Positions 10,155 through 23,465 of a DNA stretch of 64,000 nt are shown piece after piece (positions within the stretch are counted from its first letter, which is position 1; every line of letters starts with the position of its first letter). The DNA is from Alphaproteobacteria bacterium (GTDB lineage: Bacteria > Pseudomonadota > Alphaproteobacteria > SP197): positions 2,196,885 through 2,260,884 of the forward strand of contig CBDAUG010000001.1 in NCBI GenBank assembly GCA_965200495.1. Reading direction: 5' to 3'. The notes under the pieces were generated by a model, which saw only the letters and a list, made by a program, of their open reading frames with translations, ran no database searches and had not been told where the DNA came from. The position numbers and the translations under genes were made by a program.

Positions 10155-10279
10155 CAAATGTGCTCCGTGTGAGTCATGGCCACAGCGACAGCCGGACCGC
10201 ACTGAGCGGCCGGCGGGGCATCGCCACCATGTCGTTGTGTGGCGCGGTGATCAGTCCGCAGTCTCGAACAGGTGCAAAC

Positions 10280-10576
10280 TCAAACCGCCATATGCGGCTG
10301 ATAGCGCCGTACTGCAATTCGGTCTTCGTATCTGCGCGCTTGCACGAGATCGTAGGCCGTCTGGCGTCGCAGCCAGAACTCTGCATTGGACCAGCCTGCC
10401 TTTTCGAGGCGGATGGCCATTTCGGGAGAGATCCCCGCGTGACCGTTGACAACCCGGGAAAGAGTATGGCGGGCGACGCCCAGCACCTGTGCCGCTTCGG
10501 TCACGCTCAAACCGAGTGGTTCGAGACAGTTTTCGCGAACACTGCGTCCGGGATGAGGGGGGGCGATCATCGGCAT
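10280..10576 (-). CDS. higA: HigA-family antitoxin (XRE-type HTH)
   Basis: Reads [72 protein letters not shown]. Lies 14 nt downstream of higB. Confidence 0.85.
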
Positions 10577-10590
10577 GCTCGTGGCTCCCG

Positions 10591-10869
10591 TCAGTGGTAG
10601 TCGACCAGGTCGACGTCGTAGGCGTCGCCGTCTTCAAGGCGGAAGGTCATCCGCCAGTTTCCGGAAATCGAGATGCTCCAGTGTCCCTTGAGATGGCCCT
10701 TCAGCAAATGAAGCCGGTAGCCGGGCAGATCAAGGTCGGAGGGCTTGCAGGCATCGTCGAGGTCGGCCAGCGCCAGTGCTCCACGGTCCGAAAGCTCGGG
10801 TCCTACCCTGTTCGCATCTCCACGTTCATACATTCGCTTGAGGCCGCGGTGACGAAAGCTCCGAATCAT
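10591..10869 (-). CDS. higB: HigB-family toxin (RelE/ParE superfamily 'killer' protein)
   Basis: Reads [38 protein letters not shown]…[39 protein letters not shown]. Toxin-first higBA gene order. Confidence 0.85.
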
Positions 10870-10875
10870 GACCAT

Positions 10876-10896
10876 GTGTACCGCATGTCGGTACAC
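10876..10896. promoter_or_regulatory. Palindrome GTGTACCG-catgt-CGGTACAC immediately upstream of higB; candidate HigA/HigBA autoregulatory operator
   Basis: Perfect 8-bp inverted arms within 30 nt of the higB start. An AT-rich promoter-like stretch follows at about 10960–11030. Confidence 0.5.
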
Positions 10897-12596: not shown

Positions 12597-12618
12597 TTGA
12601 TTGACCAGTCAGAAAATC
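12597..12618. promoter_or_regulatory. Operator-like motif ATTGATTGACCAGTCAGAAAAT; 20/22 identical in reverse complement to 20188–20210
   Basis: About 100 nt upstream of the PotD-like SBP gene. Palindromic core TGACCAGTCA. Shared with the amine oxidase operon promoter. Confidence 0.55.
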
Positions 12619-12718
12619 TGGGTGATGCTTTCGGGGTCCGCAAACCAGGTGGCGTGGACTCACATGAAACCCGGGGCCAGCGGGCTGCGGGCAGGTGACA
12701 ATCTGGAGGATCACATCC

Positions 12719-13828
12719 ATGGATATCAGGGATACCATCAAGCGACTTGAAAACAGGGAGTTGAGCCGTCGGGAGCTCGGTCAGGCGATGGCCGCGGTCG
12801 GGCTGGTGTCGACGGTGATGCCGTTGACGGCGGCCCATGCCGAGGATCAGGCGGTCTACTTTACGTGGTCCGGTTATGACGTGCCGGAGCTCTGGCCCGG
12901 CTATGTCGAAAAGCACGGTGTGGAGCCGGATTGTCCGGTCTTCGGTGACGCCGAGGAGGCCTTCACCAAGGTGAGGGCCGGCTTCGTCGTGGATGTCATG
13001 CATCCATGCAGCGGCAATGTGCCACGCTGGCGGCGCGCGGGCGTTCTCCAGCCCATCGACACATCGAGGCTTTCCAACTGGAAGGATGTGGTTCCGGCGC
13101 TCTCCAACATCCAGGATGCCCGGCACGATGGACAGCAGTGGTTCGCTCCTTTCGAGTGGGGGCAGACATCGATCACCTACCGCACGGACATCGTCGACTG
13201 GCAGGGCGAAGAGGAGTCCTGGGGGCTGCTCTGGGACGAGCGCTATGCCGGCAGGCTTTCGATCATCGATGCCGCCGAGGATGCCTGGTGGTGTGCTGCC
13301 ATCTACGCCGGGGTCGACACCGACAATCTGACGGAAGAGGATCTGACAAGGGTTCTCGATGTCTTGAGACAGCAGCGTGATCTCCTGAGGTTTCGCCAGA
13401 GCGACATGACGACGGTGGAACAGGCTCTCGCCTCCGGGGAACTCGTCGCAGCGATGACCTGGAACGATTCGCCCTTGAGACTCATCGGACAAGGCATTCC
13501 GGTGAAGTTCGCCAATGTCAGGGAGGGCGCGCTGACCTGGGTCTGCGGCATGGCGCTGACCAGCAATGCGCCCCACTACGACAAGGCCCATGATCTCATC
13601 GACGCCATGCTGGCGCCTGATGTCGGGGAATATGTGATCATGGAGTTCGGTTATGGTCACTCGAGCGCCGCGGCGTTCGACCGTGTCAGCGATGACGACC
13701 TGGCCGCCCGCGGGCTTTCGAGGGATCCATCCGACATCCTGGACAAGGGCGTCTTCCTGATGGCGCAGTCCGAGGAGATCGAGACCAGGATCAACCGTGA
13801 CTGGGGTGAGATGATCGCCGGTTTCTGA
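12719..13828 (+). CDS. ABC transporter periplasmic substrate-binding protein, PotD/PotF (polyamine/amine) family
   Basis: Tat signal SRRELGQAMAAVGLVSTVMPLTAAHA followed by a PBP2 fold (…WSGYDVPELWPGYV…ITYRTD…). No cognate permease or ATPase is adjacent. Confidence 0.85.
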   Translation: MDIRDTIKRLENRELSRRELGQAMAAVGLVSTVMPLTAAHAEDQAVYFTWSGYDVPELWPGYVEKHGVEPDCPVFGDAEEAFTKVRAGFVVDVMHPCSGNVPRWRRAGVLQPIDTSRLSNWKDVVPALSNIQDARHDGQQWFAPFEWGQTSITYRTDIVDWQGEEESWGLLWDERYAGRLSIIDAAEDAWWCAAIYAGVDTDNLTEEDLTRVLDVLRQQRDLLRFRQSDMTTVEQALASGELVAAMTWNDSPLRLIGQGIPVKFANVREGALTWVCGMALTSNAPHYDKAHDLIDAMLAPDVGEYVIMEFGYGHSSAAAFDRVSDDDLAARGLSRDPSDILDKGVFLMAQSEEIETRINRDWGEMIAGF

Positions 13829-13858
13829 CCCGGCATCGCACCTTGCCGTCTGAAAGAC

Positions 13859-13900
13859 GGGAACCGGGACCAGGCTCGGTCCCGGTTCCTGTTTCCTTCT
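13859..13900 (+). terminator. Rho-independent terminator after the SBP gene
   Basis: GGGAACCGGGACC-aggctc-GGTCCCGGTTCC is a perfect 12–13-bp stem, followed by TGTTTCCTTCTTC. Confidence 0.7.
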
Positions 13901-13920
13901 TCACAGTCAGGTGACGCGAT

Positions 13921-14595
13921 ATGCCCCATGGTGCACCCCCGGCTGCGAGTGCGTTGCCAGCGAACCGCCGCCTTGCCGTTCGCCAGGCACGGCGACAGCA
14001 GCTGATCGACGCCACCATCGAATCGATCGCCCGGCGGGGATTCTCGGGCACCACCCTGGAAACCGTCACCAGGGGCGCCCGGCTGTCGCACGGCGTGGTC
14101 AACTTTCATTTCCGCACCAAGGAAGATCTCTACGTCGAGACTCTGGGTCATCTGGCGCGGGAACATTATGAGCTGTGGCGCAGCGCCATGCTGCGTGCCG
14201 GCCCGGACCCGGCGAAACAACTGCAGGCCATCCTGGAGGCGGATTTCGACCGCCGGGTCTGCTCGAAAAAGAAACTTGCGGTCTGGTTCGCCTTCTGGGG
14301 CCAGGCGAAATACCGGCCCGCCTACCTCGAGATCCACCACCGCTTCGATGACGAGAGGTATGTCGAGATCTGCCGGCTGTGCCGGGAACTGGTGTCAAGC
14401 GGCCCCTACGAGGGCGCCGACGCGGACGGGATTGCCCGCAGCATCGAGGCCCTGATCGACGGTCTGTGGCTCAACCTGCTCATGTATCCGCGGGACATCC
14501 GTCGCCAGACCGCGAGAACGGATTGCCTGGCATATCTTGCCACGGCCTTTCCCCATCATTTTGAACGGCCGGCGGCCGGTGGCTGCAAGGCCTGA
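13921..14595 (+). CDS. TetR-family transcriptional regulator (BetI-like)
   Basis: HTH RQQLIDATIESIARRGFSGTTLETVTRGARLSHGVVNFHFRTKEDL. Immediately upstream of the dehydrogenase gene. Confidence 0.85.
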   Translation: MPHGAPPAASALPANRRLAVRQARRQQLIDATIESIARRGFSGTTLETVTRGARLSHGVVNFHFRTKEDLYVETLGHLAREHYELWRSAMLRAGPDPAKQLQAILEADFDRRVCSKKKLAVWFAFWGQAKYRPAYLEIHHRFDDERYVEICRLCRELVSSGPYEGADADGIARSIEALIDGLWLNLLMYPRDIRRQTARTDCLAYLATAFPHHFERPAAGGCKA

Positions 14596-14599
14596 TGCG

Positions 14600-16681
14600 A
14601 TGGCAAGGGATCCGCGTCACGACATCCTGTTCGAGCCGGTGCCCATCGGGCCGTTGATCGCCCGCAACCGGTTCTACCAGGTGCCGCATTGCACAGGCAG
14701 TGGCTGGCAGAGCCCGCACATCCTTGCCGGGCTGCGCGCCATGAAAGCCGAAGGCGGCTGGGCCGTGGTCAACACGGAGTACTGTTCACCCCATCCTTCT
14801 GTTGACGATACGCCCTATCCCATGGCGTCGCTCTGGGATGATCGCGACATCCGGGCGCACGCCCTGATGACCGACCGGGTTCACGCCCATGGTTCGCTTG
14901 CCGGCGTGGAACTGGTTCTGGGTGGCGCAAGGATTGCCAATCACCTGACCCGCCAGGTGCCGCTCGGGGTGGTCAGCATGCCGCTCGCCACAGGAGAGCC
15001 CTTCCAGACGCGGGCCATGGACCATGACGACATCCGCGAGATCAGGCGCTGGCACCGCAATGCCGCGCTGCGCGCCAGGCAGGCAGGCTTCGACATTGTC
15101 TACGTCTATGCCACCCATGACTATCTGCTGTCGCAGTTTCTCTCGCCGGTGCTCAACACGCGTTCGGACGAGTATGGCGGCTCGCTTGCCAACCGGGTGC
15201 GCCTGGTACGCGAACTCATCGAGGATACGAAGGATGCCGTTGGCGGGACCATGGCTGTCGCGGTGAGATTCTCTGCCGAGACCAACGGTGGTGGCGGCGA
15301 TGACGGCACGCCGGTTCCCGGCGAAACCGAAGACATCCTGGGCCTGCTGGGGGATCTGCCAGACCTCTGGGACATCAATGTCAGCGACTATTCCCTCGAA
15401 ATGGGACTGTCGCGCTTTGTTGCTGAAGGGGCCCTCGAATCCTACGTTTCAACCATCCGTTCCCTGACGACGAAGCCCATCGTGACTGTCGGACGTTTCA
15501 CCTCGCCGGATACCATGGCGGCCTGGGTGAGGAAGGGGCTGGTCGACTTCATCGGCGCGGCGCGGCCGTCCATCGCCGATCCCTTCCTGCCCAGGAAGAT
15601 CGAAGAGGGACGCATCGAGGACATCCGCGAATGCATCGGCTGCAACATCTGCTACATGGGCGATGCCCGCGGCGCGCCCATCCGCTGCACCCAGAATCCC
15701 ACCATGAGCGAGGAGTGGCGCCGCGGCTGGCATCCGGAGGTCATCGCCAGCCGGCATTCCGCGTCGCGTGTTCTCGTCATCGGGGCGGGGCCGGCCGGGC
15801 TCGAAGCTGCCCTGTCCCTGGGAAGAAGGGGCTATGACGTCGTTCTTGCCGAGGCCGAGCGCGCACTCGGTGGACGGGTGACGAGGGAGGCCAGGCTTCC
15901 CGGACTCGCCGAATGGGCACGTGTGCGCGATTATCGGGTGACCCAGTTGAACGGGCTTGCCAACGTGGAGATCTATCCTGCGAGCAGGCTGGGTCCCGGA
16001 GATGTCCTCGATGTGGCGGCCGACCATGTCGCTGTGGCGACAGGGGCGCACTGGAGAGCCGATGGTTTCGGTGTCAGCAATCGCGCAGGCATTGAATCCC
16101 TCGGTCCCTGCGAGAGCATCTTCACGCCCGACGACATCATGGCAGGCCGGTTTCCTGGGGGCCGTGTCATCGTCTACGACGATGACCACTACTACATGGG
16201 TACAGTCATGGCCGAGGCATTGCGCGGCCACGGCCTCGAGACCACGCTTGTGACACCCGAAGATGTTGTTTCAGCCTGGGGCGGGCTGACCCTGGACCGC
16301 TGGCGGGCCCGCAGACGGCTGATGGAGACCGGTGTCGGCATTGTCGTTGCCCATGAGCTGGTTTCCTTCGATGGCCGTCGGGCCCGCCTGGCCTGCAGCG
16401 CCGGGGGCGGGGAACGGGATATCGATGCGGACGCGATCGTTCTCGTGACGTCGCGCGCGCCTGATGATGCCCTCTATCAGGCGGTTCGCCGCAGCATGGA
16501 AACAGGGGACAAGGGCGCGCCGACGACGCTGCAGCGGATCGGCGACTGTGATGCGCCGGCTATCATCGCTGCGGCGGTCTACGCCGGACACCGTTACGCC
16601 CGCGAACTCGGCGCCGACGTCGATGCCGACAATCCGCTCAGGCATGACCGGGTCGACGTGGAGGCGAGCCATGACAACTGA
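14600..16681 (+). CDS. Trimethylamine/dimethylamine/histamine dehydrogenase-family iron-sulfur flavoprotein (OYE-like FMN domain + [4Fe-4S] + ADP-binding domain)
   Basis: N-terminal OYE/TIM-barrel region (FYQVPHCTG, SLAGVELVLGGARIANHL). Cluster motif CIGCNICY-x11-C. C-terminal GxGxxG (VLVIGAGPAGLEAAL). About 693 aa. Confidence 0.85.
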   Translation: MARDPRHDILFEPVPIGPLIARNRFYQVPHCTGSGWQSPHILAGLRAMKAEGGWAVVNTEYCSPHPSVDDTPYPMASLWDDRDIRAHALMTDRVHAHGSLAGVELVLGGARIANHLTRQVPLGVVSMPLATGEPFQTRAMDHDDIREIRRWHRNAALRARQAGFDIVYVYATHDYLLSQFLSPVLNTRSDEYGGSLANRVRLVRELIEDTKDAVGGTMAVAVRFSAETNGGGGDDGTPVPGETEDILGLLGDLPDLWDINVSDYSLEMGLSRFVAEGALESYVSTIRSLTTKPIVTVGRFTSPDTMAAWVRKGLVDFIGAARPSIADPFLPRKIEEGRIEDIRECIGCNICYMGDARGAPIRCTQNPTMSEEWRRGWHPEVIASRHSASRVLVIGAGPAGLEAALSLGRRGYDVVLAEAERALGGRVTREARLPGLAEWARVRDYRVTQLNGLANVEIYPASRLGPGDVLDVAADHVAVATGAHWRADGFGVSNRAGIESLGPCESIFTPDDIMAGRFPGGRVIVYDDDHYYMGTVMAEALRGHGLETTLVTPEDVVSAWGGLTLDRWRARRRLMETGVGIVVAHELVSFDGRRARLACSAGGGERDIDADAIVLVTSRAPDDALYQAVRRSMETGDKGAPTTLQRIGDCDAPAIIAAAVYAGHRYARELGADVDADNPLRHDRVDVEASHDN

Positions 16682-17429
16682 CGATATCCTGCCGACAGCC
16701 GAAATCTGGTTTGCCATCGAGGCCCTCGATGGCGGCATCATCCGGTTTCGGGAGGACCACATCGATTCCTATGCCGTTGGTGATATCTGGCTCGTCCGTG
16801 GCCGCGACAGGGACCTTGCCGTCGATACGGGCACAGGCATTGTGGCGCCCGCGCCTCTCGTCGAGGCCGTGGCCGGCAAGCCCGTCACCGCTGTTGCCCT
16901 CAACTGCTACTACGACCATGCCGGCGGCTGGGCGAGTTTTTCCGACCGGGCCTGCCATCCCCTCGACGCGCCGGAACTGCGCGTGCCCACCCGGGAAAGC
17001 GTCGGGGCCGGAACCTATCTCAACCGCAACACGCTGTGGGCGCTGCCCCGTGAAGACTACGACGTGGCCGACTACACGATGACACCGGCCGAGCCGACGC
17101 GTCTTGTCGAGGAGGGATCGCAGTTCGACCTCGGCGACCGCGTTCTTGATGTTCTGCATGTTCCCGGGCGTTCACCAGGCGGCCTGGCGATCTGGGACAA
17201 GGACAGCGGAACGCTCTTCACCAGCGACATGCTCTATGACGGTGACCACGGGCCCGCATGGCCGCCTCCTGAACCGGTTGCCTACTGCGCCAGCCTGCGG
17301 CGCATGCGCGAACTCCCGGTCAGGCGCGTCTGCCCGGGTCACTATGGTGTCATGGGCGCCCGGAAGATGCGCGAGGTCATCGATCGCCAACTCGGCGATC
17401 TCGAACACGCCGCCGGCGGAATCACCTGA
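16671..17429 (+). CDS. MBL-fold metallo-hydrolase
   Basis: Reads …LNCYYDHAGGWASF…HVPGRSPGG…DGDHG. Start overlaps the dehydrogenase stop (ATGA…TGA), indicating translational coupling. The first 69 aa of the listed ORF are in another gene's frame. Confidence 0.75.
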   Translation: MTTDDILPTAEIWFAIEALDGGIIRFREDHIDSYAVGDIWLVRGRDRDLAVDTGTGIVAPAPLVEAVAGKPVTAVALNCYYDHAGGWASFSDRACHPLDAPELRVPTRESVGAGTYLNRNTLWALPREDYDVADYTMTPAEPTRLVEEGSQFDLGDRVLDVLHVPGRSPGGLAIWDKDSGTLFTSDMLYDGDHGPAWPPPEPVAYCASLRRMRELPVRRVCPGHYGVMGARKMREVIDRQLGDLEHAAGGIT

Positions 17430-17705
17430 CACAGGGCGACAGGGACCGCCTGCGAGCAGTGATGGTCAACATGACGCTGTTTGACCGCATCGAAGGGGGA
17501 CCATTGATCGTGTCAGTTGTGCCTGTCGACCGGCTCGGCCGCCTTGCGTTCCGGGAGACCGTCTCGTATGCTCTCGGTGTGGATGCGTTGGCACGATGCG
17601 GCGTCATCGCCTGTCCGGGCCCAACAAACGCTCGCCCCAGAGGGGTGTGGCCATGGTCAGAGCGCCCGGCCATGTTGGTGAGATTCCCCGTACATGCCAG
17701 AGGCC

Positions 17706-18599
17706 TCAACGAAGACGCCTCCTTCGCGCGGCAATGCGCTCGCGGTGGATGATGTAGAGACCTGCACCAATGATGACACTGGCGCCGATCATCACTTCCC
17801 GGCTTGGCCACTCGCCCCAGATCAGCAATCCCAGCACGATACCCCAGACGAGCCCCGTGTACTCGAACGGGGCGAGCACGGAAGGCGGCGCAATACGAAA
17901 GGCCGCCGTCATGGCGTACTGGGCGAGTCCTGCCATGAGGCCGACGGTGGCGAGGACGAGAGCGTCGTCCCAGTCAGGTGTCTCCCAGACGAAGGCAACC
18001 GCGATGGTGCTGAAGGTGGTGAATGCCAGCGCGGTATAGATTGAAAGCGAGGCGGTGGTGACCACGCGACCCAGCACCCGCGTCATCATCATGCCGATGG
18101 TGAACATGATGTTCGAGCCTACCAGGAGCGCCGCGCCTTCCCATGGAATCTGCCCGCCCGGCCGGACGACGAACAGCACGGCCGCGAATCCGAGAAGCAC
18201 CGCGCTCCAGCGGTGCGGGCCGACCGGTTCCTTCAGAATCCATGCCGAGGCTGCGGTGATGAAGATGGGCGCCGCCATGCCGACAGCAACGGCGTCGGCC
18301 AGGGGCATCAGCGGCAGCGCGAAGACAAAGCTCGCAAAGGCGCAGAACCCGACTGTACCGCGCAGCAGGCTGAGACAGTGAAGCCGCAGGGACATGCGTT
18401 GCAGGCCTCCCTGACGGCTCGCCAGAAGAAAGATCGGTACCATGCCGAAGAGGCTGCGCCAGAAGAGGATGACAAAAACGGGGTAGGTTGCGGCATACCA
18501 CTTGCTGGCCGCGTCGTGCAGCGCCCAGAGACCGACCGCCAGCACGATCAGGGCGATTCCCAACTGCGGACGATCATGACCCTTGAGCGTTGCGTTCAC
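17706..18599 (-). CDS. DMT-superfamily (EamA-like) transporter
   Basis: 10-TM profile with two EamA repeats. 297 aa. Confidence 0.85.
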   Translation of the reverse strand: MNATLKGHDRPQLGIALIVLAVGLWALHDAASKWYAATYPVFVILFWRSLFGMVPIFLLASRQGGLQRMSLRLHCLSLLRGTVGFCAFASFVFALPLMPLADAVAVGMAAPIFITAASAWILKEPVGPHRWSAVLLGFAAVLFVVRPGGQIPWEGAALLVGSNIMFTIGMMMTRVLGRVVTTASLSIYTALAFTTFSTIAVAFVWETPDWDDALVLATVGLMAGLAQYAMTAAFRIAPPSVLAPFEYTGLVWGIVLGLLIWGEWPSREVMIGASVIIGAGLYIIHRERIAARRRRLR

Positions 18600-18790
18600 G
18601 TTCTGTCCTGCTCACCTTGCGTGCGGGTGCCAGGGGCCTTGTGAATGCCGCCCTGCGATGCGGTTCTGCCCGGCCTTCAATCGGGATGCATGCTGACACA
18701 TGTCAGATCGTCGACGCTACCGACGCGCCGGCTGCAACGCCAGTCGACGCGGTGCGCGTGCCGCTTGCGGCCCGCCACGTGCGGCGTTGC

Positions 18791-20128
18791 CTATGAGAGA
18801 AGGGTGGCGACCTCCCGGGCGACGGCCCGACCGTTGAGCCAGGCGCCGCCGGCGAGCTGGTACCACGGCGCGGCGGTGGCCTCGCCGGCAAAGAAGATCC
18901 TGTCGGCGACGGGCCGGGCAAGCCCGGCTCGCGCGTCATGATGGCCCGGAAGCGCCGCGGCATAGGCGCCGCGCGTCCAGGGATTGCTGTCCCAGTCTGT
19001 CGCCAGTCCCCTGACGACGTGCTTGTAGACGTCATTGCCGAAAATCGCAGCAAGCTCGCCCAGGGCGAAGTCGATCGCGGCATCGGATCCTGCCGCCGCC
19101 AGTTCGCGTCCGAAACGCCCTCCCGTGAAGCCGATCATGAGATTGAAACCGAAGGGAAAGGTGAGGAAATAGCAGGCCCGTGCCGGCAGCAGGTTCTCCA
19201 CGTGGTAGGTCAGCCAGTTGTTGTCACCCAGGCCGAACCGCTCGCCGTCGAACTCAAGGGCGATTTTCATCAGAAGTCCCATCGGCAAGCGGTCGATGGC
19301 TTCCTGCTTCCACAATGGAAGGGCGGGAGAAAAGGAGATGTCACCGGAGGCCAGCACACCTGTGGAAACGGTGACGATGCAGGCCCGCGCCCTGACGGTG
19401 CCCGCAGGCGTTGCCAGCGCCACGCCGTCACCGCTCCAGTCGATCGCGGTGACCGGAGTCTCAAGCGTGACCGGCAGGCCATATCCGTCGCGGGCGACAA
19501 GCGTGCCGAACCCTTCGCGAACCCTGTAGTAGGCGCCGATGTCGCCGTAGTTCCAGTTGTCAAGGGTGGACAGCTCGTCGAAATCGACAGCGAAATCCAT
19601 GGCTCCCATCCACGTCTGGGACACACCGGAAAACGACATGTCCGGTGGAACAACCGTCGATGCGGCAACATCGAGACCATCGCGCCCTGCCTTGTCGAGA
19701 GCGCCGTTGATGGCGTCCCAGGCACGGTCGTACTCCCCCCGTTCCTGGCCACTCGCCTTGCGGCCGCCGACGAAGAGCGATTCTCCGGCGCCACTGTGAT
19801 CGAGCAGCGTCAAGCCCCACGCGCGCGCCATGGCGATGTAGGGAAGGTCTGCCGGGCCCGTGATCCAGGAACATCCGCGGTCGAAGGGGACACCGAACGT
19901 ATCGCTGTCCGTCCAGGCCCGTCCGCCGATTCGTCCCGCAGCCTCGAGGACGACGACCGACAGTCCCTCCTGCTGCAGGGTGCGGGCCGCGGCGAGACCG
20001 GCCGCGCCGGCTCCCACCACGACGACATCCGGATTGCCGGGAAGACCCAGAGCGCCCGAAGGCAACGCCATCGTGGCTCCCAGACCGGCCAGAAACGACC
20101 GGCGGGAGAATGACTGCGCATGAGTCAT
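18791..20128 (-). CDS. FAD-dependent amine oxidase (flavin monoamine/polyamine oxidase family), Tat-exported
   Basis: Tat signal SRRSFLAGLGATMALP. Dinucleotide fold VVVVGAGAAGLAAARTL…VVVLEAAGRIGGR. C-terminal FFAGEAT. Confidence 0.85.
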   Translation of the reverse strand: MTHAQSFSRRSFLAGLGATMALPSGALGLPGNPDVVVVGAGAAGLAAARTLQQEGLSVVVLEAAGRIGGRAWTDSDTFGVPFDRGCSWITGPADLPYIAMARAWGLTLLDHSGAGESLFVGGRKASGQERGEYDRAWDAINGALDKAGRDGLDVAASTVVPPDMSFSGVSQTWMGAMDFAVDFDELSTLDNWNYGDIGAYYRVREGFGTLVARDGYGLPVTLETPVTAIDWSGDGVALATPAGTVRARACIVTVSTGVLASGDISFSPALPLWKQEAIDRLPMGLLMKIALEFDGERFGLGDNNWLTYHVENLLPARACYFLTFPFGFNLMIGFTGGRFGRELAAAGSDAAIDFALGELAAIFGNDVYKHVVRGLATDWDSNPWTRGAYAAALPGHHDARAGLARPVADRIFFAGEATAAPWYQLAGGAWLNGRAVAREVATLLS

Positions 20129-20187
20129 GGTCGATGAGATTCTCCCGAAGTGTTGCCCGCACGCGCCAACGGGCGAGCATCCTCAAT

Positions 20188-20210
20188 ATTTTCTGACCGG
20201 TCAATCAAAC
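20188..20210. promoter_or_regulatory. Operator-like motif ATTTTCTGACCGGTCAATCAAAC (palindromic core TGACCGGTCA); second copy of the 12597–12618 motif
   Basis: About 60–80 nt upstream of the amine oxidase start (minus strand). 20/22 match to the reverse complement of site 12597–12618. Confidence 0.55.
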
Positions 20211-20294
20211 GTGAACCCGCGGCACGCCATCATCCGCGATGCAGGACAAGGGCGCCGACCGTTCAGTCGGCCCCGCAGCTGCGGGCATGGGCGT

Positions 20295-20552
20295 TCAGAT
20301 ACGGTGGCGTGACGCGCGGCGTCGGCGTAACAGCAGGAGCAGGACGCTGATGACGCCTGTCGCGATCCACAAGGGGAATCCGAGAACCGGCAGGACGATG
20401 TCGAGCCACAGGTCGGGGTCGACATTCTTCTCGATCAGGGCCTGCAATCCGACGAGACTGTTGGCATCAATCTCAGCCCAGAGTCCGCCGATGGAAAGGG
20501 ACGTGTAGAGAATTGCCAGCACCACGGTGATGATGACAAAGAGACTTGTCAT
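20295..20552 (-). CDS. Small hypothetical membrane protein (2 TM)
   Basis: MTSLFVIITVVLAILYTSLSIGGLWAEI…LPVLGFPLWIATGVISVLLLLL. Only hydrophobicity and operon position support this call. Confidence 0.4.
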   Translation of the reverse strand: MTSLFVIITVVLAILYTSLSIGGLWAEIDANSLVGLQALIEKNVDPDLWLDIVLPVLGFPLWIATGVISVLLLLLRRRRASRHRI

Positions 20553-20683
20553 GATGAAGCGCAATTCGGACAACTCAGCCTCCCTTGTGCTGCCGGATGG
20601 TCCTGGCACGGCGTGCAGTTTAGCCGACATCCTTCGTTGCGTCATCGTTACCCTGCCCGGCTGGCGGCGCTGCCCGACGCGGC

Positions 20684-21844
20684 TCAGTAGCGTTTCGGGA
20701 TGTATCGGGCGTAGAAGGCTCCCACCGCCATGCCGAGACCGGCCCAGGCGAAGACCGTCGACAGCGGAAGGACCAGAAGCACGACGGCGAAGAGGCTCTG
20801 GGGAACGATACGACCGAACTCCCTGTAGGTCGTGTAGAGGGATATCATTTCTGCACGTTCGTGAGGATGGACCGCGCGTACGAAGGGTGCGTTGCCGACA
20901 GCATCAATCCATGAGGCGCACAGGCACGCCATCAGGAGCAGGCCGATGACGACATCGGGCAGAACGGCGAGAAGGGTTGCCGCCACGGACACCGCGGCAG
21001 TCGCGAGATAGCCGACGATGAGATGCCGGCGCATGCCAAGCGAGGCGCCCAGACGCCCCCACAACGGGGCCAGCATGACGAAGAGGCTGCCGACAGAAAC
21101 GATGAGACCGGCGTCGGCGGCGGCAAAACCGTTGTTGACGCAGTAGATCGGGGTGTAGATGAAGAAGACGGACCACCAGGACGAACGCACCAGGGCCAGC
21201 ACGTAGGCGAGACGCAGCCGCGGCTGTCCGGCGAAGCGCGGAATGAAGCGCAAGGGGTTCGAATGGCCGCGAACCGTTCTCGTCGATGGTGTCACGTAGC
21301 GCCGCCAGATGATCCAGGCGCCCGTCGAGAGCGCCAGCAGCGCCATCACGGCGAAGGGAGCCCACAGTCCGGCGCGCGATGAAAGCTGGACACCAAACCA
21401 GGGTCCCATGGCGAAGGCGAGACCGAGCACGGCCATGCGCACCGCCTCGAAACGCGCGAAACGTCGCCGTTCCACCCTTTCGATGGTGATCATGTTGATG
21501 ACGATATCGACGGAGAAGAATCCCCACGTGTAGAGAACGACGGCAAGAAAAAAGGCGACGCCGCTGCCCGTTGGAAAAAGGAGGGCGGACAGCAGGATGT
21601 TCGTCAAACCGAGCTGCATCAGACGGTAACGTCCCATGCGGGCGAGCAGGTGTGGCAGTGTCAGCGCTCCTCCCAGGCCCATGATTCCGACAGCCGTGAA
21701 GAGCATGCTCACCTGTTGGGTGCTGCCCAGAAGCTCGAATGCCCGCAGCGGAAAGACGGTGATCGGTATGGCCAGGGCAAGGACCATCAGACCCAGCATG
21801 AGGGCCAGTTCGAAGGCATGGGGAATGCCCTCGATGTTCAGCAT
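20684..21844 (-). CDS. MFS transporter
   Basis: 12-TM profile with a typical MFS loop (GRLGASLGMRR). Start taken at the internal M16 of the listed ORF. Confidence 0.8.
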   Translation of the reverse strand: MLNIEGIPHAFELALMLGLMVLALAIPITVFPLRAFELLGSTQQVSMLFTAVGIMGLGGALTLPHLLARMGRYRLMQLGLTNILLSALLFPTGSGVAFFLAVVLYTWGFFSVDIVINMITIERVERRRFARFEAVRMAVLGLAFAMGPWFGVQLSSRAGLWAPFAVMALLALSTGAWIIWRRYVTPSTRTVRGHSNPLRFIPRFAGQPRLRLAYVLALVRSSWWSVFFIYTPIYCVNNGFAAADAGLIVSVGSLFVMLAPLWGRLGASLGMRRHLIVGYLATAAVSVAATLLAVLPDVVIGLLLMACLCASWIDAVGNAPFVRAVHPHERAEMISLYTTYREFGRIVPQSLFAVVLLVLPLSTVFAWAGLGMAVGAFYARYIPKRY

Positions 21845-21948
21845 TCGAACGAGACGAACCGGCACGAATGCAATCCCCGCACGGATCACCCATCATCGCT
21901 CCCGCCTTGGCGGCAATGTCAAGTACCCGACGAGGAATTTCAGGGCCC

Positions 21949-22758
21949 TCAGCCGGTGACGATCTGGCGAATCCTGGCGGCGACGGTTTCGGGCCTGTGG
22001 CGGAAGAGCGAACAGTGCCCCAGACCCTCCAGCAAGTGGAAGTGGCCATCGGCCGCCGCTTCGGCCACCAGGCGGCCGCGCGCCGGCGGCGTCTGCATGT
22101 CCTGGTCGAAGGCGATCACGTGGAGCGGCCGCGTGCAGCCGGCGAGTCGGTCCATGGCCGAATACTCGAGACATGCCTGCCACTGGGCGGCGAGCATGTC
22201 ACCGTCACGCTCGGCGTACGCTGCGGCCACCACGGGTTTGCACCTCTCCCACATCGCGTTGTCGCCCAGAACCTCGCTGGGGTACATCAGCAGGGCATAG
22301 TGGGCCAGCGCGAAGTCGGCAGGCAGGCGGTGACCCGCTTCGCGGAAACTGATCTCGGCCTCCTCCCATTCTGCGATGAAACCGCCCTTGCCGCCTGATG
22401 TTCCCATGGCGATTCCCAGGCGTACGAGTTCGGGCCAGGCCAGGAGCATCTCCTGGACGACGAGCGCGCCCATGGAGAGGCCGACGATCACGACCGGAGG
22501 ATCGCAGACTTCCCTGATCAGGTGCGCGACATCATCGGCATAGGTGGCGATCGGCCAGGGGGGAGGGCGGTGGCTGACCGTGCGTCCGGCGCCGCGTGGA
22601 TCAAAACTCGTGCAGCGGTAGTCGGGAAAGAAGCCGAACTGCTCCTCCCATTCCCCGCCTGTCTGGTCCCCGCCCGGACACCAGACGATGTCCGGTCCGG
22701 CTCCCGAACGGACCCAGTGGAGGGACACATCGGCGGTATTCAGCGTGGCGTGGTCCAT
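21949..22758 (-). CDS. Alpha/beta-fold hydrolase
   Basis: Nucleophile elbow GLSMG. Reads HWVRSGAGPDIVWCPGG…. Catalytic His near the C-terminus (GHCSLFRH). Confidence 0.8.
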   Translation of the reverse strand: MDHATLNTADVSLHWVRSGAGPDIVWCPGGDQTGGEWEEQFGFFPDYRCTSFDPRGAGRTVSHRPPPWPIATYADDVAHLIREVCDPPVVIVGLSMGALVVQEMLLAWPELVRLGIAMGTSGGKGGFIAEWEEAEISFREAGHRLPADFALAHYALLMYPSEVLGDNAMWERCKPVVAAAYAERDGDMLAAQWQACLEYSAMDRLAGCTRPLHVIAFDQDMQTPPARGRLVAEAAADGHFHLLEGLGHCSLFRHRPETVAARIRQIVTG

Positions 22759-22769
22759 GGCGGATTCCT

Positions 22770-23399
22770 TCAGCCGGTCAGCCGGGCGGGCTGGATCGGT
22801 CCCGGCGAAACCCACAGGCAGAACGTGAAGAGCGGTGTGGTGCGGGTGATCATCTCGTGGGGAAGCCAGGGGGTGTTGTGAACCGGCTTGCCCGGCGGGC
22901 GCTCCCGGGGCGGGGCGTCATCCTGGCCCCACAGGGTATCGCCCCCGAAGGGATAGTATATTTCCTCGGCTTCGTGATGGTGACGCGGGTAGTGTTGTCC
23001 GGGGCCAATGACGAAGAAGGCGGCCACGACGCGGTCGTGCGGAATGAGCGCCTCGAAGCCCAGAATGTTGGTGTAGCAGTAGTTGTTCATGTAGCCGTCG
23101 CCAAGGCTTTCGCGATAGTGCTCGCTGCGAATCCAGCGCAGCGACGGCTCGAGTGCGGCAAAGGCCTGTGCGAGATCCGCCATGGGACCCTTCCGCGCCA
23201 TGGAGAGCGCAGCAGCGAGATGGCGACAGCCCGGCAGCCGCCGCGCCTCCTGGATCCGGTCCGGCAGTCGGGCAGCGGAGAGTTCACGGGAGAGAATGGA
23301 AAGCGGCGGCGACGTGGCCGTGTCTTTGTGCTGCGCGATGAAGCGCAGGATTTCCCGGCGCACGCGTTCGAAGGCCGTGTCGAGAGCATTGTGGACCAT
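22770..23399 (-). CDS. Cupin-domain protein (metal-binding HHHEAEE motif; DMSP-lyase DddL-like / RmlC-like cupin)
   Basis: GPGQHYPRHHHEAEEIYYPFGGDTLWG matches G-x5-HxH-x3,4-E-x6-G. About 210 aa. First gene of the minus-strand operon. The N-terminal 113 aa of the listed ORF do not look coding. Confidence 0.65.
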   Translation of the reverse strand: MVHNALDTAFERVRREILRFIAQHKDTATSPPLSILSRELSAARLPDRIQEARRLPGCRHLAAALSMARKGPMADLAQAFAALEPSLRWIRSEHYRESLGDGYMNNYCYTNILGFEALIPHDRVVAAFFVIGPGQHYPRHHHEAEEIYYPFGGDTLWGQDDAPPRERPPGKPVHNTPWLPHEMITRTTPLFTFCLWVSPGPIQPARLTG

Positions 23400-23465
23400 G
23401 ACCTCTTTCCTCTCATGCGTCTGCCTGCCATGGTGCCCGGGCAAAGCGGTCGAAGAGTGCGGGCA

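What the first reader, a model, noticed from the sequence alone, without database searches (positions are those of the whole stretch)
12597..23465. Candidate uncharacterised amine-catabolism gene set
Two adjacent transcription units carry this gene set. On the plus strand: a Tat-exported PotD/F-family binding protein (monocistronic, with its own terminator), a TetR, a trimethylamine-dehydrogenase-family Fe-S flavoprotein and a translationally coupled MBL hydrolase. On the minus strand: a cupin, an α/β-hydrolase, an MFS transporter, a small membrane protein, a Tat-exported FAD amine oxidase and a DMT exporter.

This combination does not correspond to any characterised pathway I recognise, whether TMA/DMA, histamine, polyamine or carnitine. 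The substrate-binding protein has no ABC permease or ATPase partner nearby.

Choline sulfatase and an MttB-like methyltransferase lie within 30 kb. That hints at quaternary-amine or sulfonium metabolism.
Basis: inference. Interest (0 to 1): 0.6.

Follow-up and report, generated by a model that had tools for sequence, protein, structure and literature searches.

The report
Trimmed amine-oxidation regulon beside cupin operon
The ten genes are real, but they are two unrelated units placed side by side: a cut-down copy of a widespread, still uncharacterised marine amine-oxidation gene cluster controlled by one repressor site, and a separate DMSP-lyase-like cupin/hydrolase/transporter operon.

Summary
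All ten genes exist with the stated families and order. They are not one pathway on two transcripts.

**Unit A** comprises the SBP, a BetI-type TetR, a TMADH/histamine-dehydrogenase-family enzyme ("p2"), an MBL-fold protein, the Tat-exported flavin amine oxidase (AO), and probably the DMT.
- A 21-bp palindromic site, TTGATTGACCRGTCAGAAAAT, occurs exactly twice in 64 kb, upstream of the SBP and of the AO.
- The same site sits at the orthologous cluster in distant marine MAGs.
- There the full form is AO | SBP-permease-permease-ATPase-TetR-p1-p2-MBL.
- The window has lost the permeases, the ATPase and the histamine-dehydrogenase-like paralog p1. This explains the orphan SBP, which is still under purifying selection (dN/dS 0.10).
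- p2 matches neither the histamine nor the trimethylamine active-site signature. The MBL partner lacks three metal-binding histidines. The substrate is unknown.

**Unit B** comprises a cupin, an α/β-hydrolase, an MFS transporter and a small membrane protein.
- The cupin is a DMSP-lyase-like (cupin-DLL, DddQ-fold) protein.
- The unit lacks the operator and is conserved next to yciB in Alphaproteobacteria that lack unit A.
- Elsewhere it is joined by MttB-family, DAO, GNAT and LysR genes.

I found no characterised ortholog. Interest is moderate.

The parts
12597..12617 (+). Operator/promoter element O1, TTGATTGACCAGTCAGAAAAT (palindromic core TGACCAGTCA). It lies 102 bp upstream of the SBP start.
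   Evidence: One of exactly two matches in the window; 0 expected in 100 shuffles. Conserved upstream of SBP orthologs in L088, L092, L093, L099, L106 and L108.
12719..13828 (+). Tat-signal PotD/F-family solute-binding protein. It is an orphan: no permease or ATPase gene is nearby.
   Evidence: Pfam SBP_bac_8/6/1. PotD/PotF NCBIfam scores are 97 and 84 bits, far below the cut-offs of 582 and 636. The SRR motif is conserved in orthologs. dN/dS is 0.097 against L088. The pocket differs from PotF: D39 is Gly, S85 is Cys and D278 is Cys, conserved across orthologs.
13852..13899 (+). Long GC-rich hairpin after the SBP gene, acting as a terminator or attenuator.
   Evidence: Fold of -45 kcal/mol over 96 nt, z = -4.18, with 0 of 200 shuffles as stable.
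13921..14595 (+). TetR-family repressor with a BetI-type C-terminal domain; the presumed binder of the operator.
   Evidence: TetR_N plus TetR_C_6 at 88 bits. BetI models score 120 and 115 bits, below the cut-offs of 201 and 118. Orthologs at 59-86% identity sit in the cluster in L088, L089, L092 and L093.
14600..16681 (+). TMADH/histamine-dehydrogenase-family FMN/4Fe-4S amine dehydrogenase, 'p2' type.
   Evidence: Best PDB matches are 3k30 (E 1.4e-202), 6de6, 6l6j and TMADH. The Cys31 FMN link and four Fe-S cysteines are present. The active-site signature Y61/M75/Y264/E267/D355 is neither HADH nor TMADH and is conserved in 68-91% orthologs.
16671..17429 (+). MBL-fold protein translationally coupled to p2, with a non-canonical metal site.
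   Evidence: Pfam Lactamase_B. It has NCYYDH in place of HxHxDH and HVPGR in place of HxPGH. The same substitutions occur in the L092 and L093 orthologs, whereas 38% homologs in Azospirillum and Gemmobacter are canonical.
17706..18599 (-). EamA/DMT transporter; a variable accessory gene downstream of the AO.
   Evidence: Pfam EamA. It is present only in relatives that also carry the operator before the AO: L003, L007, L010 and L088.
18791..20128 (-). Tat-exported flavin amine oxidase of the MAO/PAO/LSD type.
   Evidence: Pfam Amino_oxidase at 191 bits. The SRRSFLAG motif has its RR conserved in orthologs. In the AF2 model (pLDDT 86) the nearest folds are LSD2, a bacterial MAO, spermine oxidase and maize PAO (TM 0.81).
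20188..20208 (-). Operator/promoter element O2, TTGATTGACCGGTCAGAAAAT (perfect palindrome TGACCGGTCA). It lies 60 bp upstream of the AO start.
   Evidence: The second of the two matches in the window. It occupies the same position in L003, L007, L010 and L088.
20295..20645 (-). Small two-helix membrane protein. The true start is probably at 20564 or 20552.
   Evidence: No family match. Conserved at 62-80% in relatives, where it is called as 89 aa. An inverted repeat at 20251-20274 follows it.
20684..21889 (-). MFS transporter of the cupin operon.
   Evidence: Pfam MFS_1. Found downstream of the cupin and ABH genes in 20 related loci at 43-89% identity.
21949..22758 (-). α/β-fold serine hydrolase; its start overlaps the cupin stop.
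   Evidence: Abhydrolase_6/1. The GLSMG Ser, Asp and His are conserved. It is 72-93% identical across all loci that have it. The best PDB match is Rv0554/BpoC at E 1e-21.
22770..23399 (-). Cupin of the DMSP-lyase-like (cupin-DLL) superfamily with a DddQ-type fold.
   Evidence: Pfam DMSP_lyase at 103.6 bits. H140, H142, E146, Y148, H181 and W196 are conserved. The AF2 model has pLDDT 95.8, and the top folds are DddQ 4b29, 4la2 and 5cu1 (TM 0.66-0.82, 20-24% identity).

Best explanation
The interval holds two independent units that happen to be neighbours in this lineage of sponge-associated Alphaproteobacteria.

**Unit A** is a TetR-controlled amine-oxidation regulon. It is a trimmed copy of a cluster common in marine Alphaproteobacteria, whose full form is AO | SBP-permease-permease-ATPase-TetR-p1-p2-MBL.

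- *Shown:* the same 21-bp palindromic site lies before the SBP gene and before the amine-oxidase gene. It is conserved at orthologous positions in distant genomes.
- *Shown:* the window lacks the permease and ATPase genes and the p1 paralog, yet the remaining genes are under purifying selection.
- *Inferred mechanism:* without inducer, the BetI-type TetR sits on both sites, each of which overlaps a TTGAYY -35-like hexamer. An amine releases it.
  - Promoter 1 gives abundant SBP mRNA and, by read-through of the hairpin, TetR, p2 and the MBL-fold protein.
  - Promoter 2 gives the oxidase, and probably the DMT.
- *Inferred enzymology:*
  - The oxidase is exported folded with FAD by Tat. It oxidises a C-N bond of a substituted or primary amine in the periplasm; its fold is PAO/LSD/MAO-like.
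  - In the cytoplasm, p2 cleaves a C-N bond to give an aldehyde plus a smaller amine. Electrons pass from 6-S-cysteinyl-FMN through the 4Fe-4S cluster, presumably to ETF.
  - The MBL-fold partner handles a product of p2. Its chemistry is unknown, and its metal site is degenerate.
- *Substrate:* unidentified. It is most likely a biogenic or polyamine-type or N-methylated amine. It is not classical histamine, trimethylamine or putrescine.

**Unit B** (cupin-DLL, α/β-hydrolase, MFS, small membrane protein) is a separate operon, divergent from yciB.

- *Inferred from neighbours in other genomes* (MttB family, DAO, GNAT, LysR): it imports an onium compound, either a quaternary amine or a sulfonium, possibly an ester. 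It then processes the compound by hydrolysis and metal-dependent elimination.
For: **Operator.**
- It has 2 matches in 64 kb with 0 expected, at -102 of the SBP and -60 of the AO.
- The same pairing occurs in L088.
- Two copies lie in the divergent AO-SBP intergenic region of L092 and L093, where the SBP is 64% and the AO 60% identical to the window's.
- The same core lies upstream of a bare TetR-p2 pair in L089.
- A related palindrome, TTGAGCGCTCAA, lies before both the SBP/dehydrogenase genes and the TetR gene on the P. marina plasmid.
- Three further metagenome contigs carry the motif about 100 bp before the SBP.

**Cluster conservation.**
- The full cluster appears in four independent contigs.
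- The p2 and AO hit lists share twelve contig lengths, four of them at or below 38 kb.

**Reduction.**
- L088 and the window share the SBP-TetR-p2-MBL form. No permease homolog is in the window.
- dN/dS is 0.09-0.14 for the SBP, TetR, p2, AO and DMT.

**Enzyme assignments:** (p2; AO; MBL, Tat motifs).

**Independence of unit B.**
- Cupin and ABH, with or without the MFS, sit next to yciB/trcR in loci that lack p2, MBL and AO (L016, L018, L019, L026, L030, L033-L037).
- The full clusters L092-L094 lack the cupin and ABH.
- No operator lies near the cupin.
- MttB-family, DAO, GNAT and LysR genes sit beside cupin and ABH.
Against: - No expression or binding data exist. TetR as the operator's binder is inferred from position and symmetry only.
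- In nine relatives without the DMT, the AO has no operator and directly follows the small gene. AO regulation therefore varies, and AO may there be tied to unit B's transcript.
- Units A and B stay adjacent down to 67% cupin identity (L014, L015), which could reflect a functional link.
- L094 shows no recognisable operator.
- Of the 26 metagenome matches to the operator, 23 are unrelated to the cluster. The motif alone is therefore not diagnostic.
- No ETF, aldehyde dehydrogenase or cytochrome c gene was found among the window ORFs scanned, so the pathway is incomplete locally.
- The substrate proposal rests on fold and family resemblance only.
Confidence: 0.6

Rival explanations
1. All ten genes form one pathway for a single quaternary amine or sulfonium compound, and the cupin, hydrolase, oxidase and dehydrogenase act in sequence.
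For: - The order cupin-ABH-MFS-small-AO-(DMT)-MBL-p2-TetR is kept in 12 related MAGs down to 67% cupin identity.
- In DMT-less relatives the AO starts 38 bp after the small gene.
- Both units concern charged nitrogen or sulfur compounds.
Against: - The two gene groups have different distributions.
- The operator lies only before the SBP and the AO.
- Relatives carry unrelated genes (Aldolase_II, CitMHS) inserted between the MFS and small genes.
- Gammaproteobacterial orthologs of the cupin stand alone.
Confidence: 0.12
2. Unit A is simply a histamine-utilisation locus (or a classical putrescine/spermidine one): p2 is a histamine dehydrogenase and the SBP is PotF/PotD.
For: - The best solved relatives of p2 are the two histamine dehydrogenases (E 1e-202 and 1e-199; 54% and 52% identity over the catalytic domain).
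- The SBP's best PDB matches are putrescine and spermidine binders.
- The AO fold is close to polyamine oxidases and to a putrescine-bound bacterial MAO.
- The lost paralog p1 keeps the histamine-dehydrogenase residues E79, W267 and D358.
Against: - p2 has Tyr, Met and Tyr at HADH positions Gln65, Glu79 and Trp267. It keeps only Asp358, and this signature is conserved across orthologs.
- The SBP lacks PotF D39 and D278 (Gly and Cys) and scores far below the PotD/PotF cut-offs.
- The HADH-like paralog is exactly the one missing from the window.
Confidence: 0.18
3. The cupin is a genuine DMSP lyase, and unit B is a DMSP import-and-cleavage operon.
For: - Pfam DMSP_lyase at 103.6 bits.
- All six cupin-DLL active-site residues are present.
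- DddQ is the top structural match.
- The organism is marine and host-associated.
Against: - Identity to DddQ is only 20-24%, and DddQ itself is argued to be a promiscuous, poor DMSP lyase (bioRxiv 10.1101/161257).
- No acrylate-handling gene is nearby: the Zn-ADH at 26383-27372 is a PIG3-type quinone oxidoreductase, not AcuI.
- Recurrent neighbours are MttB-family, DAO and GNAT genes, which fit betaine-type amines.
- I could not compare the cupin with a DddL sequence.
Confidence: 0.2
4. Unit A in this genome is a decaying remnant with no current function: an orphan SBP, a lost paralog and a crippled MBL.
For: - The permease, ATPase and p1 genes are lost relative to L092-L094.
- A toxin-bearing 2.8-kb insertion lies just upstream.
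- The MBL metal motif is degenerate.
Against: - All reading frames are intact.
- dN/dS is 0.09-0.14 against a relative at dS of about 0.45.
- Both operators are perfectly preserved.
- The MBL substitutions are shared by the full clusters, so they are ancestral and not decay.
- A bare TetR-p2 unit also exists in L089.
Confidence: 0.08

Closest known systems
Histamine dehydrogenase (Nocardioides/Pimelobacter simplex 3k30; Rhizobium sp. 4-9 6de6) and trimethylamine dehydrogenase (2tmd/1djn)
   Same: - Same three-domain architecture.
- The Cys for 6-S-cysteinyl-FMN is present, as is the CxxCxxC...C 4Fe-4S motif.
- Identity over the catalytic domain is 54% to HADH 3k30, 52% to 6de6 and 48% to TMADH.
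   Different: - The substrate-pocket residues are a mosaic. TMADH Tyr60 is kept; Trp264/267 is Tyr; HADH Glu79 is Met; HADH Asp358 is kept; TMADH Trp355 is absent.
- The signature is conserved in a large marine ortholog group at 66-72% identity.
- The electron acceptor was not determined.
Hno + Pno pair of the hybrid (VPP) nicotine pathway of Agrobacterium tumefaciens S33 (PMC7688666)
   Same: - A flavin amine oxidase and a TMADH-family, ETF-dependent dehydrogenase act on successive C-N bonds of one amine.
- The cluster also carries TetR, ABC and MFS genes.
   Different: - No molybdenum hydroxylase, pyridine-ring genes, etfAB or aldehyde dehydrogenase is present here.
- Pno lacks the FMN-linking Cys (6l6j has Ala), whereas p2 has it.
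- The oxidase here is Tat-exported; in that review, enzymes other than NdhAB are reported to be cytoplasmic.
PotFGHI / PotABCD polyamine ABC uptake systems
   Same: - The SBP has the PotD/F fold family.
- The aromatic box residues W37, Y40, W244 and Y314 and an acid at E185 are retained.
- The ancestral cluster has two BPD_transp_1 permeases and an ABC_tran+TOBE_2 ATPase.
   Different: - The window has no permease or ATPase.
- PotF D39, S85 and D278 are Gly, Cys and Cys.
- The protein carries a Tat-type rather than a Sec-type signal.
- NCBIfam scores are about one sixth of the equivalog cut-offs.
[quoted passage not shown]
   Same: - Pfam PF16867.
- The HxHxxxExY motif plus the distal His and Trp are present.
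- The full-length DddQ fold, including the N-terminal helical part, is matched.
- Like DddQ, its neighbours in other genomes concern N-methylated compounds.
   Different: - Identity to DddQ is only 20-24%.
- It forms its own tight ortholog group at 57-88% identity.
- It is fused in an operon with a very conserved α/β-hydrolase and an MFS transporter.
- Activity is unknown.
BetI (choline-responsive TetR repressor)
   Same: TetR_N plus the BetI-type C-terminal domain; a palindromic operator overlaps the promoter.
   Different: - It scores below both BetI equivalog cut-offs (120 against 201; 114.7 against 118).
- It controls an amine dehydrogenase and oxidase set, not betABT.
Periplasmic amine oxidases such as NicA2 of Pseudomonas putida S16 or copper amine oxidase TynA of E. 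coli (comparison from my own knowledge, not tested here)
   Same: The first oxidative step on an amine takes place in the periplasm.
   Different: - No cytochrome c or CxxCH protein is encoded nearby.
- The fold is nearer to PAO/LSD than to the nicotine oxidase clade. The (S)-6-hydroxynicotine oxidase 6cr0 ranks only 42nd.

Membership tests
TMADH / histamine dehydrogenase family (FMN + 4Fe-4S + ADP amine dehydrogenases) | OYE-like FMN domain followed by two nucleotide-binding-type domains. | tested here: met
   Oxidored_FMN at 229 bits, plus Pyr_redox_2, NAD_binding_8 and OYE-like second α/β domain. Full-length alignment to 3k30, 6de6 and 1djn.
TMADH / histamine dehydrogenase family (FMN + 4Fe-4S + ADP amine dehydrogenases) | Cys that forms 6-S-cysteinyl-FMN, and four Cys of the 4Fe-4S cluster. 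| tested here: met
   Cys31 in VPHC; C345, C348, C351 and C363 all align with TMADH and HADH.
Histamine dehydrogenase (EC 1.4.9.1) proper | Substrate-site residues Gln65, Glu79 and Asp358, with Trp267 (positions recalled from the literature on 3k30 and located in the alignment). | tested here: not met
   The window has Tyr61, Met75, Tyr264 and Asp355; only the Asp is kept. The paralog p1, absent from the window, keeps E79, W267 and D358.
Trimethylamine dehydrogenase proper | Aromatic bowl of Tyr60, Trp264 and Trp355. | tested here: not met
   Tyr is kept. Trp264 is Tyr. Trp355 is absent: the loop is one residue shorter, and Gly-Asp occupies the site.
TMADH / histamine dehydrogenase family | Electron transfer to ETF. 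| not testable with these tools
   No etfAB was found among the window ORFs scanned. This needs biochemistry.
Cupin-DLL superfamily (DMSP lyases and lyase-like) | [quoted passage not shown] | tested here: met
   H140, H142, E146, Y148, H181 and W196 are invariant or nearly so in 30 homologs and align with 5cu1 H141, E145, Y147, H180 and W195.
Cupin-DLL superfamily (DMSP lyases and lyase-like) | DddQ-type fold: helical N-terminal part plus a cupin barrel. | tested here: met
   AF2 pLDDT 95.8. Foldseek top six hits are all DddQ, with TM 0.66-0.82 and E down to 2e-15.
Bona fide DMSP lyase (DddL/DddY/DddK/DddW-like function) | DMS and acrylate release from DMSP at physiological efficiency; often with acrylate-detoxifying neighbours (acuI, acuNK). 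| tested here: inconclusive
   Activity is not testable here. No AcuI is present: the nearby Zn-ADH is PIG3-family at 440 bits, against 43 bits for AcuI. I had no DddL reference sequence to compare.
Metallo-β-lactamase superfamily hydrolases | MBL fold. | tested here: met
   Lactamase_B at 49.9 bits, above the cut-off of 22.7. PDB 2zwr at E 1.7e-10.
Metallo-β-lactamase superfamily hydrolases | HxHxDH motif and a downstream His for a (bi)nuclear metal site. | tested here: not met
   NCYYDH replaces HxHxDH and HVPGR replaces HTPGH, in the window and in L092 and L093. Homologs outside the cluster are canonical.
PotD/PotF polyamine-binding proteins | Equivalog-level similarity and acidic ligand-anchoring residues (PotF D39, E185, D247, D278). 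| tested here: not met
   Scores are 97 against 582 and 84 against 636 bits. D39 is Gly and D278 is Cys; E185 is Asp; D247 falls in a deleted loop.
PotD/PotF polyamine-binding proteins | Encoded with cognate permeases and ATPase. | tested here: not met
   None is present in the window. They are present in orthologous clusters L092, L093, L094 and the JGI contig.
Flavin amine oxidases (MAO/PAO/LSD family) | Amino_oxidase domain, GxGxxG dinucleotide fold, and the conserved Lys near flavin N5. | tested here: met
   Amino_oxidase at 191 bits. GAGAAG lies at 39-44. K288 is invariant in 30 homologs. The equivalence of K288 to LSD1 K661 and maize PAO K300 is my reading of the motif, not a structural superposition.
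Tat substrates | Twin-arginine motif followed by a hydrophobic h-region and an AxA-type cleavage site. | tested here: met
   - AO: SRRSFLAGLGATMALP. The RR is at least 90% conserved.
- SBP: LSRRELGQAMAAVGLVSTVMPLTAAHA, conserved in L088, L092 and L093.
- This is motif evidence only; no signal-peptide predictor was run.
BetI (choline repressor) | Equivalog score. | tested here: not met
   TIGR03384 scores 120.3 against 201.3; PRK00767 scores 114.7 against 118.
   The site lies only before the SBP and the AO. None lies in the 66-bp cupin-yciB intergenic region or elsewhere in 12.4-23.6 kb.

The most novel reading that the evidence does not exclude
The full cluster AO | SBP-ABC-TetR-p1-p2-MBL encodes an unrecognised route for catabolism of an abundant marine amine. 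Candidates are a polyamine-type or N-methylated amine, or a host-derived amine in sponges.

- A Tat-exported PAO/LSD-like flavoprotein would act in the periplasm.
- Two specialised TMADH-family dehydrogenases would act in the cytoplasm.
- An MBL-fold protein that has given up its canonical metal site would complete the route.

In the sponge-symbiont lineage, the SBP survives the loss of its transporter because it has a second role, such as delivering substrate to the periplasmic oxidase or signalling. Separately, the cupin-ABH-MFS operon could give the first native substrate for a cupin-DLL clade.
Probability: 0.25. Interest if true: 0.65.

Novelty: new variant of a known kind. Interest (0 to 1): 0.42.

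Why it matters
- **A widespread cluster with no assigned substrate.** Orthologs of p2 and of the AO are numerous in marine metagenomes: each search lists 120 hits, at 66-91% identity for p2 and 56-89% for the AO. Pipelines label p2 'dimethylamine/trimethylamine dehydrogenase', and its active site does not support that label. Dissolved organic nitrogen budgets that rely on such labels may therefore be wrong.
- **A practical experimental handle.** The conserved operator, the TetR and the SBP allow ligand screening of two small soluble proteins, which should reveal the substrate.
- **A test case for orphan binding proteins.** The window's reduced version shows an orphan binding protein staying under selection after its transporter genes are lost.
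[quoted passage not shown] The very conserved cupin/hydrolase pair and its MttB-family neighbours give a concrete starting point.

Tried and rejected
- **Exact look-ups.** Look-ups of the window's own cupin and dehydrogenase, and of P0001, found no record. Context therefore came from relatives.
- **Literature.** Five searches found no characterised ortholog. The terms covered DMSP lyase in sponges, 6L6J, histamine dehydrogenase clusters, TMADH with polyamines, and roseobacter polyamine work. Only the nicotine VPP pathway surfaced as an analogue.
- **Plasmid searches.**
  - AO homologs are only about 36% identical and have uninformative neighbours.
  - The ABH gave no match.
- **Consensus scans.** The σ70 promoter and terminator scan found nothing useful in this 64% G+C region. 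Rfam found nothing inside the interval.
- **Cytochrome c partner for the periplasmic oxidase.** No CxxCH protein was found.
- **AcuI next to the cupin.** Rejected: the Zn-ADH is PIG3-type.
- **The window's MttB gene as the missing partner of the cupin unit.** Rejected: it is only 25% identical to the MttB genes beside the cupin elsewhere.
- **Region 9848-12596 as degraded ABC genes.** Rejected: it is a lineage-specific insertion carrying a HigB-like toxin.
- **ORF 17422-17811(-).** Rejected as a gene.
- **Metagenome scan with the 19-nt operator.** Of 26 hits, only 3 lie at the cluster and the rest look like chance. It adds little beyond confirming the position of the motif.
- **Operator in other relatives.** I looked for it before the AO in DMT-less relatives and in L094 and found none.

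Full report
**Observation.** The region is 64% G+C and full of spurious ORFs. I therefore fixed gene starts by ribosome-binding sites and by where family matches begin.
- Plus strand: SBP 12719-13828, TetR 13921-14595, TMADH-family enzyme 14600-16681, and MBL-fold protein 16671-17429.
- Minus strand, in transcription order: cupin 22770-23399, α/β-hydrolase 21949-22758, MFS 20684-21889, small membrane protein 20295-20645, flavin amine oxidase 18791-20128, and EamA/DMT 17706-18599.
- The Tat-type motifs are SRRSFLAG on the oxidase and LSRREL on the SBP.
- The MBL start overlaps the dehydrogenase stop, and the hydrolase start overlaps the cupin stop.
- A strong hairpin follows the SBP gene.
- No PotB/C-type permease exists anywhere in the window.
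- Choline sulfatase (24035-25552) and an MttB-family gene (51389-52957) are real.

**Source.** The closest relatives of these proteins are complete or draft MAGs of Alphaproteobacteria. They occur together with Candidatus Poriferihabitaceae and other sponge-derived bins. The window's own proteins appear as 100% hits on a 2.45-Mb contig, but no gene record could be fetched for them.

**What the cupin is.**
- It matches Pfam DMSP_lyase (PF16867) at 103.6 bits.
- Its only solved relatives by sequence are DddQ proteins, at E 1e-9 to 5e-7.
- An AlphaFold model (pLDDT 95.8) has six DddQ structures as its top six Foldseek matches, over the full length. TM scores are 0.66-0.82 and identity is 20-24%.
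- Lei et al. (bioRxiv 10.1101/161257) define the cupin-DLL superfamily by six residues. All six are present and conserved in 30 homologs: H140, H142, E146, Y148, H181 and W196.
- The same paper argues that most cupin-DLL proteins, DddQ included, are not true DMSP lyases and have unknown native functions. Membership of the superfamily is therefore met, but DMSP lyase function is open.

**Gene-neighbourhood test from the cupin.** I fetched 80 genomic loci around cupin relatives and searched them with the window's proteins.
- In 11 close loci (83-88% cupin identity; L001 and L011 are the same contig region) the whole order is kept: trcR-(betC)-yciB | cupin-ABH-MFS ... small-AO-(DMT)-MBL-p2-TetR.
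  - Unrelated genes are inserted between the MFS and small genes (Aldolase_II and CitMHS in L001).
  - The DMT is present in only some relatives.
- In more distant Alphaproteobacteria (46-64% cupin identity), the cupin, the hydrolase and usually the MFS remain next to yciB/trcR.
  - The hydrolase is strikingly conserved there, at 72-84% identity.
  - The dehydrogenase, MBL and oxidase are absent.
- Gammaproteobacterial and Chloroflexota orthologs of the cupin stand alone in unrelated contexts.
- In L016, L018, L019, L030, L033 and L036, the cupin and hydrolase are accompanied by further genes:
  - MttB-family methyltransferases (354-357 bits in L018 and L019);
  - a DAO-type flavoprotein in L018 and L036;
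  - GNAT and divergent LysR genes in L016, L018, L019, L034 and L035.
- The window's own MttB gene is only 25% identical to those, so it is not their ortholog.
- The Zn-ADH near the cupin is a PIG3-type quinone oxidoreductase, not AcuI.

**The dehydrogenase.**
- Its best solved relatives are the two histamine dehydrogenases (E 1.4e-202 and 8.8e-200). Next come 6l6j, then trimethylamine dehydrogenase.
- 6l6j lacks the FMN-linking Cys. This fits the non-covalent FMN reported for the Pno structure in PMC7688666, so I take it to be Pno.
- Residue by residue:
  - The FMN-linking Cys and the four Fe-S cysteines are present.
  - The substrate pocket is a mosaic. TMADH Tyr60 is kept, where HADH has Gln65.
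  - HADH Glu79 is Met. Trp264/267 is Tyr.
  - HADH Asp358 is kept. TMADH Trp355 is missing.
- This signature is conserved in orthologs of 68-91% identity.
- A database search shows a very large group of 66-72% orthologs in marine metagenomes. JGI names them 'dimethylamine/trimethylamine dehydrogenase'.

**The full cluster.**
- The dehydrogenase and oxidase hit lists share twelve 'longest contig' lengths, four of them at or below 38 kb.
- Fetching such contigs gave the same architecture four times. It is AO (divergent) | SBP - two BPD_transp_1 permeases - ABC_tran/TOBE_2 ATPase - TetR - a first TMADH-family paralog (p1) - the window-type enzyme (p2) - MBL. There are small variations:
  - the JGI contig has a third paralog and a MOSC gene;
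  - L094 has no MBL.
- Identities to the window proteins in L092 and L093 are SBP 64-65%, TetR 59-63%, p2 68%, MBL 61-65% and AO 60%.
- p1 is 61% identical to N. simplex HADH over the catalytic domain. It keeps E79, W267 and D358.
- The window and its 91% relative L088 have SBP-hairpin-TetR-p2-MBL only. The permeases, the ATPase and p1 have therefore been deleted in this lineage, which explains the orphan SBP.
- The remaining genes are not decaying. Against L088 (dS about 0.45), dN/dS is 0.097 for the SBP, 0.141 for TetR, 0.105 for p2, 0.129 for the AO and 0.092 for the DMT.
- A bare TetR-p2 pair next to DAO and GCV_T genes exists in L089.

**Co-regulation.**
- The last 120 bp before the SBP gene resemble the region before the AO gene in other genomes.
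- Alignment exposed a shared 21-mer. TTGATTGACCRGTCAGAAAAT occurs exactly twice in the window: at 12597-12617(+), 102 bp before the SBP start, and at 20188-20208(-), 60 bp before the AO start. None is expected by chance.
- The core TGACCRGTCA is palindromic and overlaps a TTGAYY -35-like hexamer.
- Conservation elsewhere:
  - The same pairing is present in L088.
  - L092 and L093 each carry two copies in the divergent AO-SBP intergenic region.
  - L089 has the core upstream of its TetR-p2 pair.
  - The P. marina plasmid has a related palindrome, TTGAGCGCTCAA, before both the SBP/dehydrogenase genes and the TetR gene. Its SBP, TetR and dehydrogenase are 38%, 38% and 54% identical to the window's.
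- A scan of metagenome contigs with a 19-nt version gave 26 hits. Three are at the cluster, each about 100 bp before the SBP; the others appear unrelated.
- I infer that this is the TetR operator, and that the SBP (with TetR-p2-MBL by read-through) and the AO form one regulon.
- Caveats:
  - Nine relatives that lack the DMT also lack the operator before the AO, which there follows the small gene directly.
  - L094 shows no recognisable site.
  - Presence of the DMT and presence of the AO operator coincide perfectly.
- No such site lies near the cupin. An inverted repeat (20251-20274) follows the small gene.

**The other proteins of unit A.**
- *Oxidase.* The model (pLDDT 86; the signal peptide is disordered) is nearest to LSD2, a bacterial MAO solved with putrescine, spermine oxidase, maize polyamine oxidase (TM 0.81/0.78), APAO and FMS1. 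This is the clade that oxidises substituted amines. K288 is invariant. No cytochrome c is encoded nearby.
- *SBP.* It is a distant PotD/F relative. It keeps the aromatic residues and one acid. It has Gly, Cys and Cys at PotF D39, S85 and D278, and these changes are conserved in all orthologs.
- *MBL-fold protein.* It is glyoxalase-II-like, but NCYYDH and HVPGR replace the metal-binding histidines, in the window and in L092 and L093.
- *MBL homologs elsewhere.* Homologs at 38% identity have the canonical motif. In Azospirillum the homolog sits in TetR-PotD SBP-permeases-MBL-aldehyde dehydrogenase. In Gemmobacter it sits in MBL-agmatinase next to an oppositely oriented succinate-semialdehyde dehydrogenase gene.
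- *Arginase-family gene.* This agmatinase-like gene scores below the equivalog cut-off. It lies just upstream of the SBP in L088. In the window it is separated from the SBP by a 2.8-kb insertion carrying a HigB-like toxin.

**Explanation.**
- *Unit A.* I read it as a TetR-gated amine-oxidation regulon in reduced form: a periplasmic PAO/LSD-like oxidase, a cytoplasmic TMADH-family C-N-cleaving dehydrogenase, an MBL-fold helper of unknown chemistry, and a binding protein that has outlived its transporter.
  - The closest characterised design is the Hno + Pno pair of the hybrid nicotine pathway (PMC7688666). None of that pathway's ring-degrading genes is present here.
  - The substrate is unknown. 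The family resemblances point to a biogenic, polyamine-like or N-methylated amine. The active-site and pocket differences argue against plain histamine, trimethylamine or putrescine.
- *Unit B.* I read it as a separate operon for an onium compound. This rests on its DMSP-lyase-like cupin and on the MttB/DAO/GNAT company it keeps elsewhere.
- *Side-by-side position.* It is conserved within this lineage only. I cannot exclude a functional link.

**Novelty and score.**
- All families are known, and the reaction types are probably known too.
- The cluster architecture is not described in anything I could find. This covers the conserved operator, the p2 active-site signature, the degenerate MBL partner and the Cys-lined SBP.
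- I file it as a new variant of a known kind, with moderate interest (0.42). The window's copy is a truncated example rather than the best model for study.

Noticed in passing
window 9848-12596: A 2.8-kb stretch lies between the arginase-family gene and the SBP. It is absent from the 91% relative L088, where the gap is 620 bp. It carries a HigB-like toxin ORF at 10591-10896(-) (60 bits) and short coding-like fragments at 11005-11223(-) and 12019-12342(-). It is probably a toxin-antitoxin or mobile insertion.
   Followed up: partly
window 43395-43583: A tandem glycine riboswitch (73 and 44 bits) sits directly upstream of gcvT-gcvH-gcvP1-gcvP2 (43586-47991).
   Followed up: no
window 51389-52957: An MttB-family methyltransferase gene (705 bits) stands alone between the ATP synthase subunit a gene and the HAD/GlmU/GlmS genes. 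It scores below the pyrrolysine-type TMA methyltransferase cut-off (271 against 525). It is only 25% identical to the MttB genes found beside the cupin elsewhere.
   Followed up: partly
window 60545-62395: A DDE transposase ORF (616 aa) has a third-position G+C of 0.88, well above the 0.75-0.80 of neighbouring genes. An Abi/HEPN-like ORF lies nearby at 58231-58965.
   Followed up: no
window 8882-9847: An arginase/agmatinase-family gene scores 137 bits against the agmatinase cut-off of 174, so its specificity is unknown. In L088 it directly precedes the SBP, after a TetR and a methyltransferase gene. An MBL homolog is translationally coupled to an agmatinase in Gemmobacter (L085).
   Followed up: partly
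window 12719-13828; L088, L092, L093, L094, L087: All SBP orthologs share two cysteines at positions that contact the ligand in PotF (S85, D278) and a glycine at D39. This suggests a distinct ligand class for this PotD/F subfamily.
   Followed up: partly
L093 about 14200(-): A third copy of the operator lies upstream of two DUF995 genes at the edge of the full cluster. These may be additional regulon members in that genome.
   Followed up: no
L099 and L108 (both from contig MKWU01000027.1): One 281-kb metagenome contig carries two operator+SBP copies (87% and 89% identical to the window's SBP) and two copies of the TetR.
   Followed up: no
window 17706-18599 and 20188-20208; L001-L015, L088: The DMT gene and the operator before the AO are either both present (window, L003, L007, L010, L088) or both absent (L001, L002, L004-L006, L008, L014, L015). 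This suggests an operator-AO-DMT cassette.
   Followed up: partly
window 17422-17811(-): This 129-aa ORF overlaps the 3' end of the DMT gene, has no family match and has an Arg/Pro/Ser-rich composition. I do not consider it a gene.
   Followed up: yes
window 5743-7776(-): A 677-aa protein has only a short AhpC/TSA-Redoxin match (residues 95-195). It is otherwise unassigned, and a second TetR gene is divergent from it at 7770-8366.
   Followed up: no
L082, L084 (gammaproteobacterial sponge-symbiont MAGs): Orthologs of the cupin at 63-64% identity are solitary. One lies among transposases, and the other lies near creatinase and arginase-family genes. The cupin can therefore function without the hydrolase and MFS partners.
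   Followed up: partly
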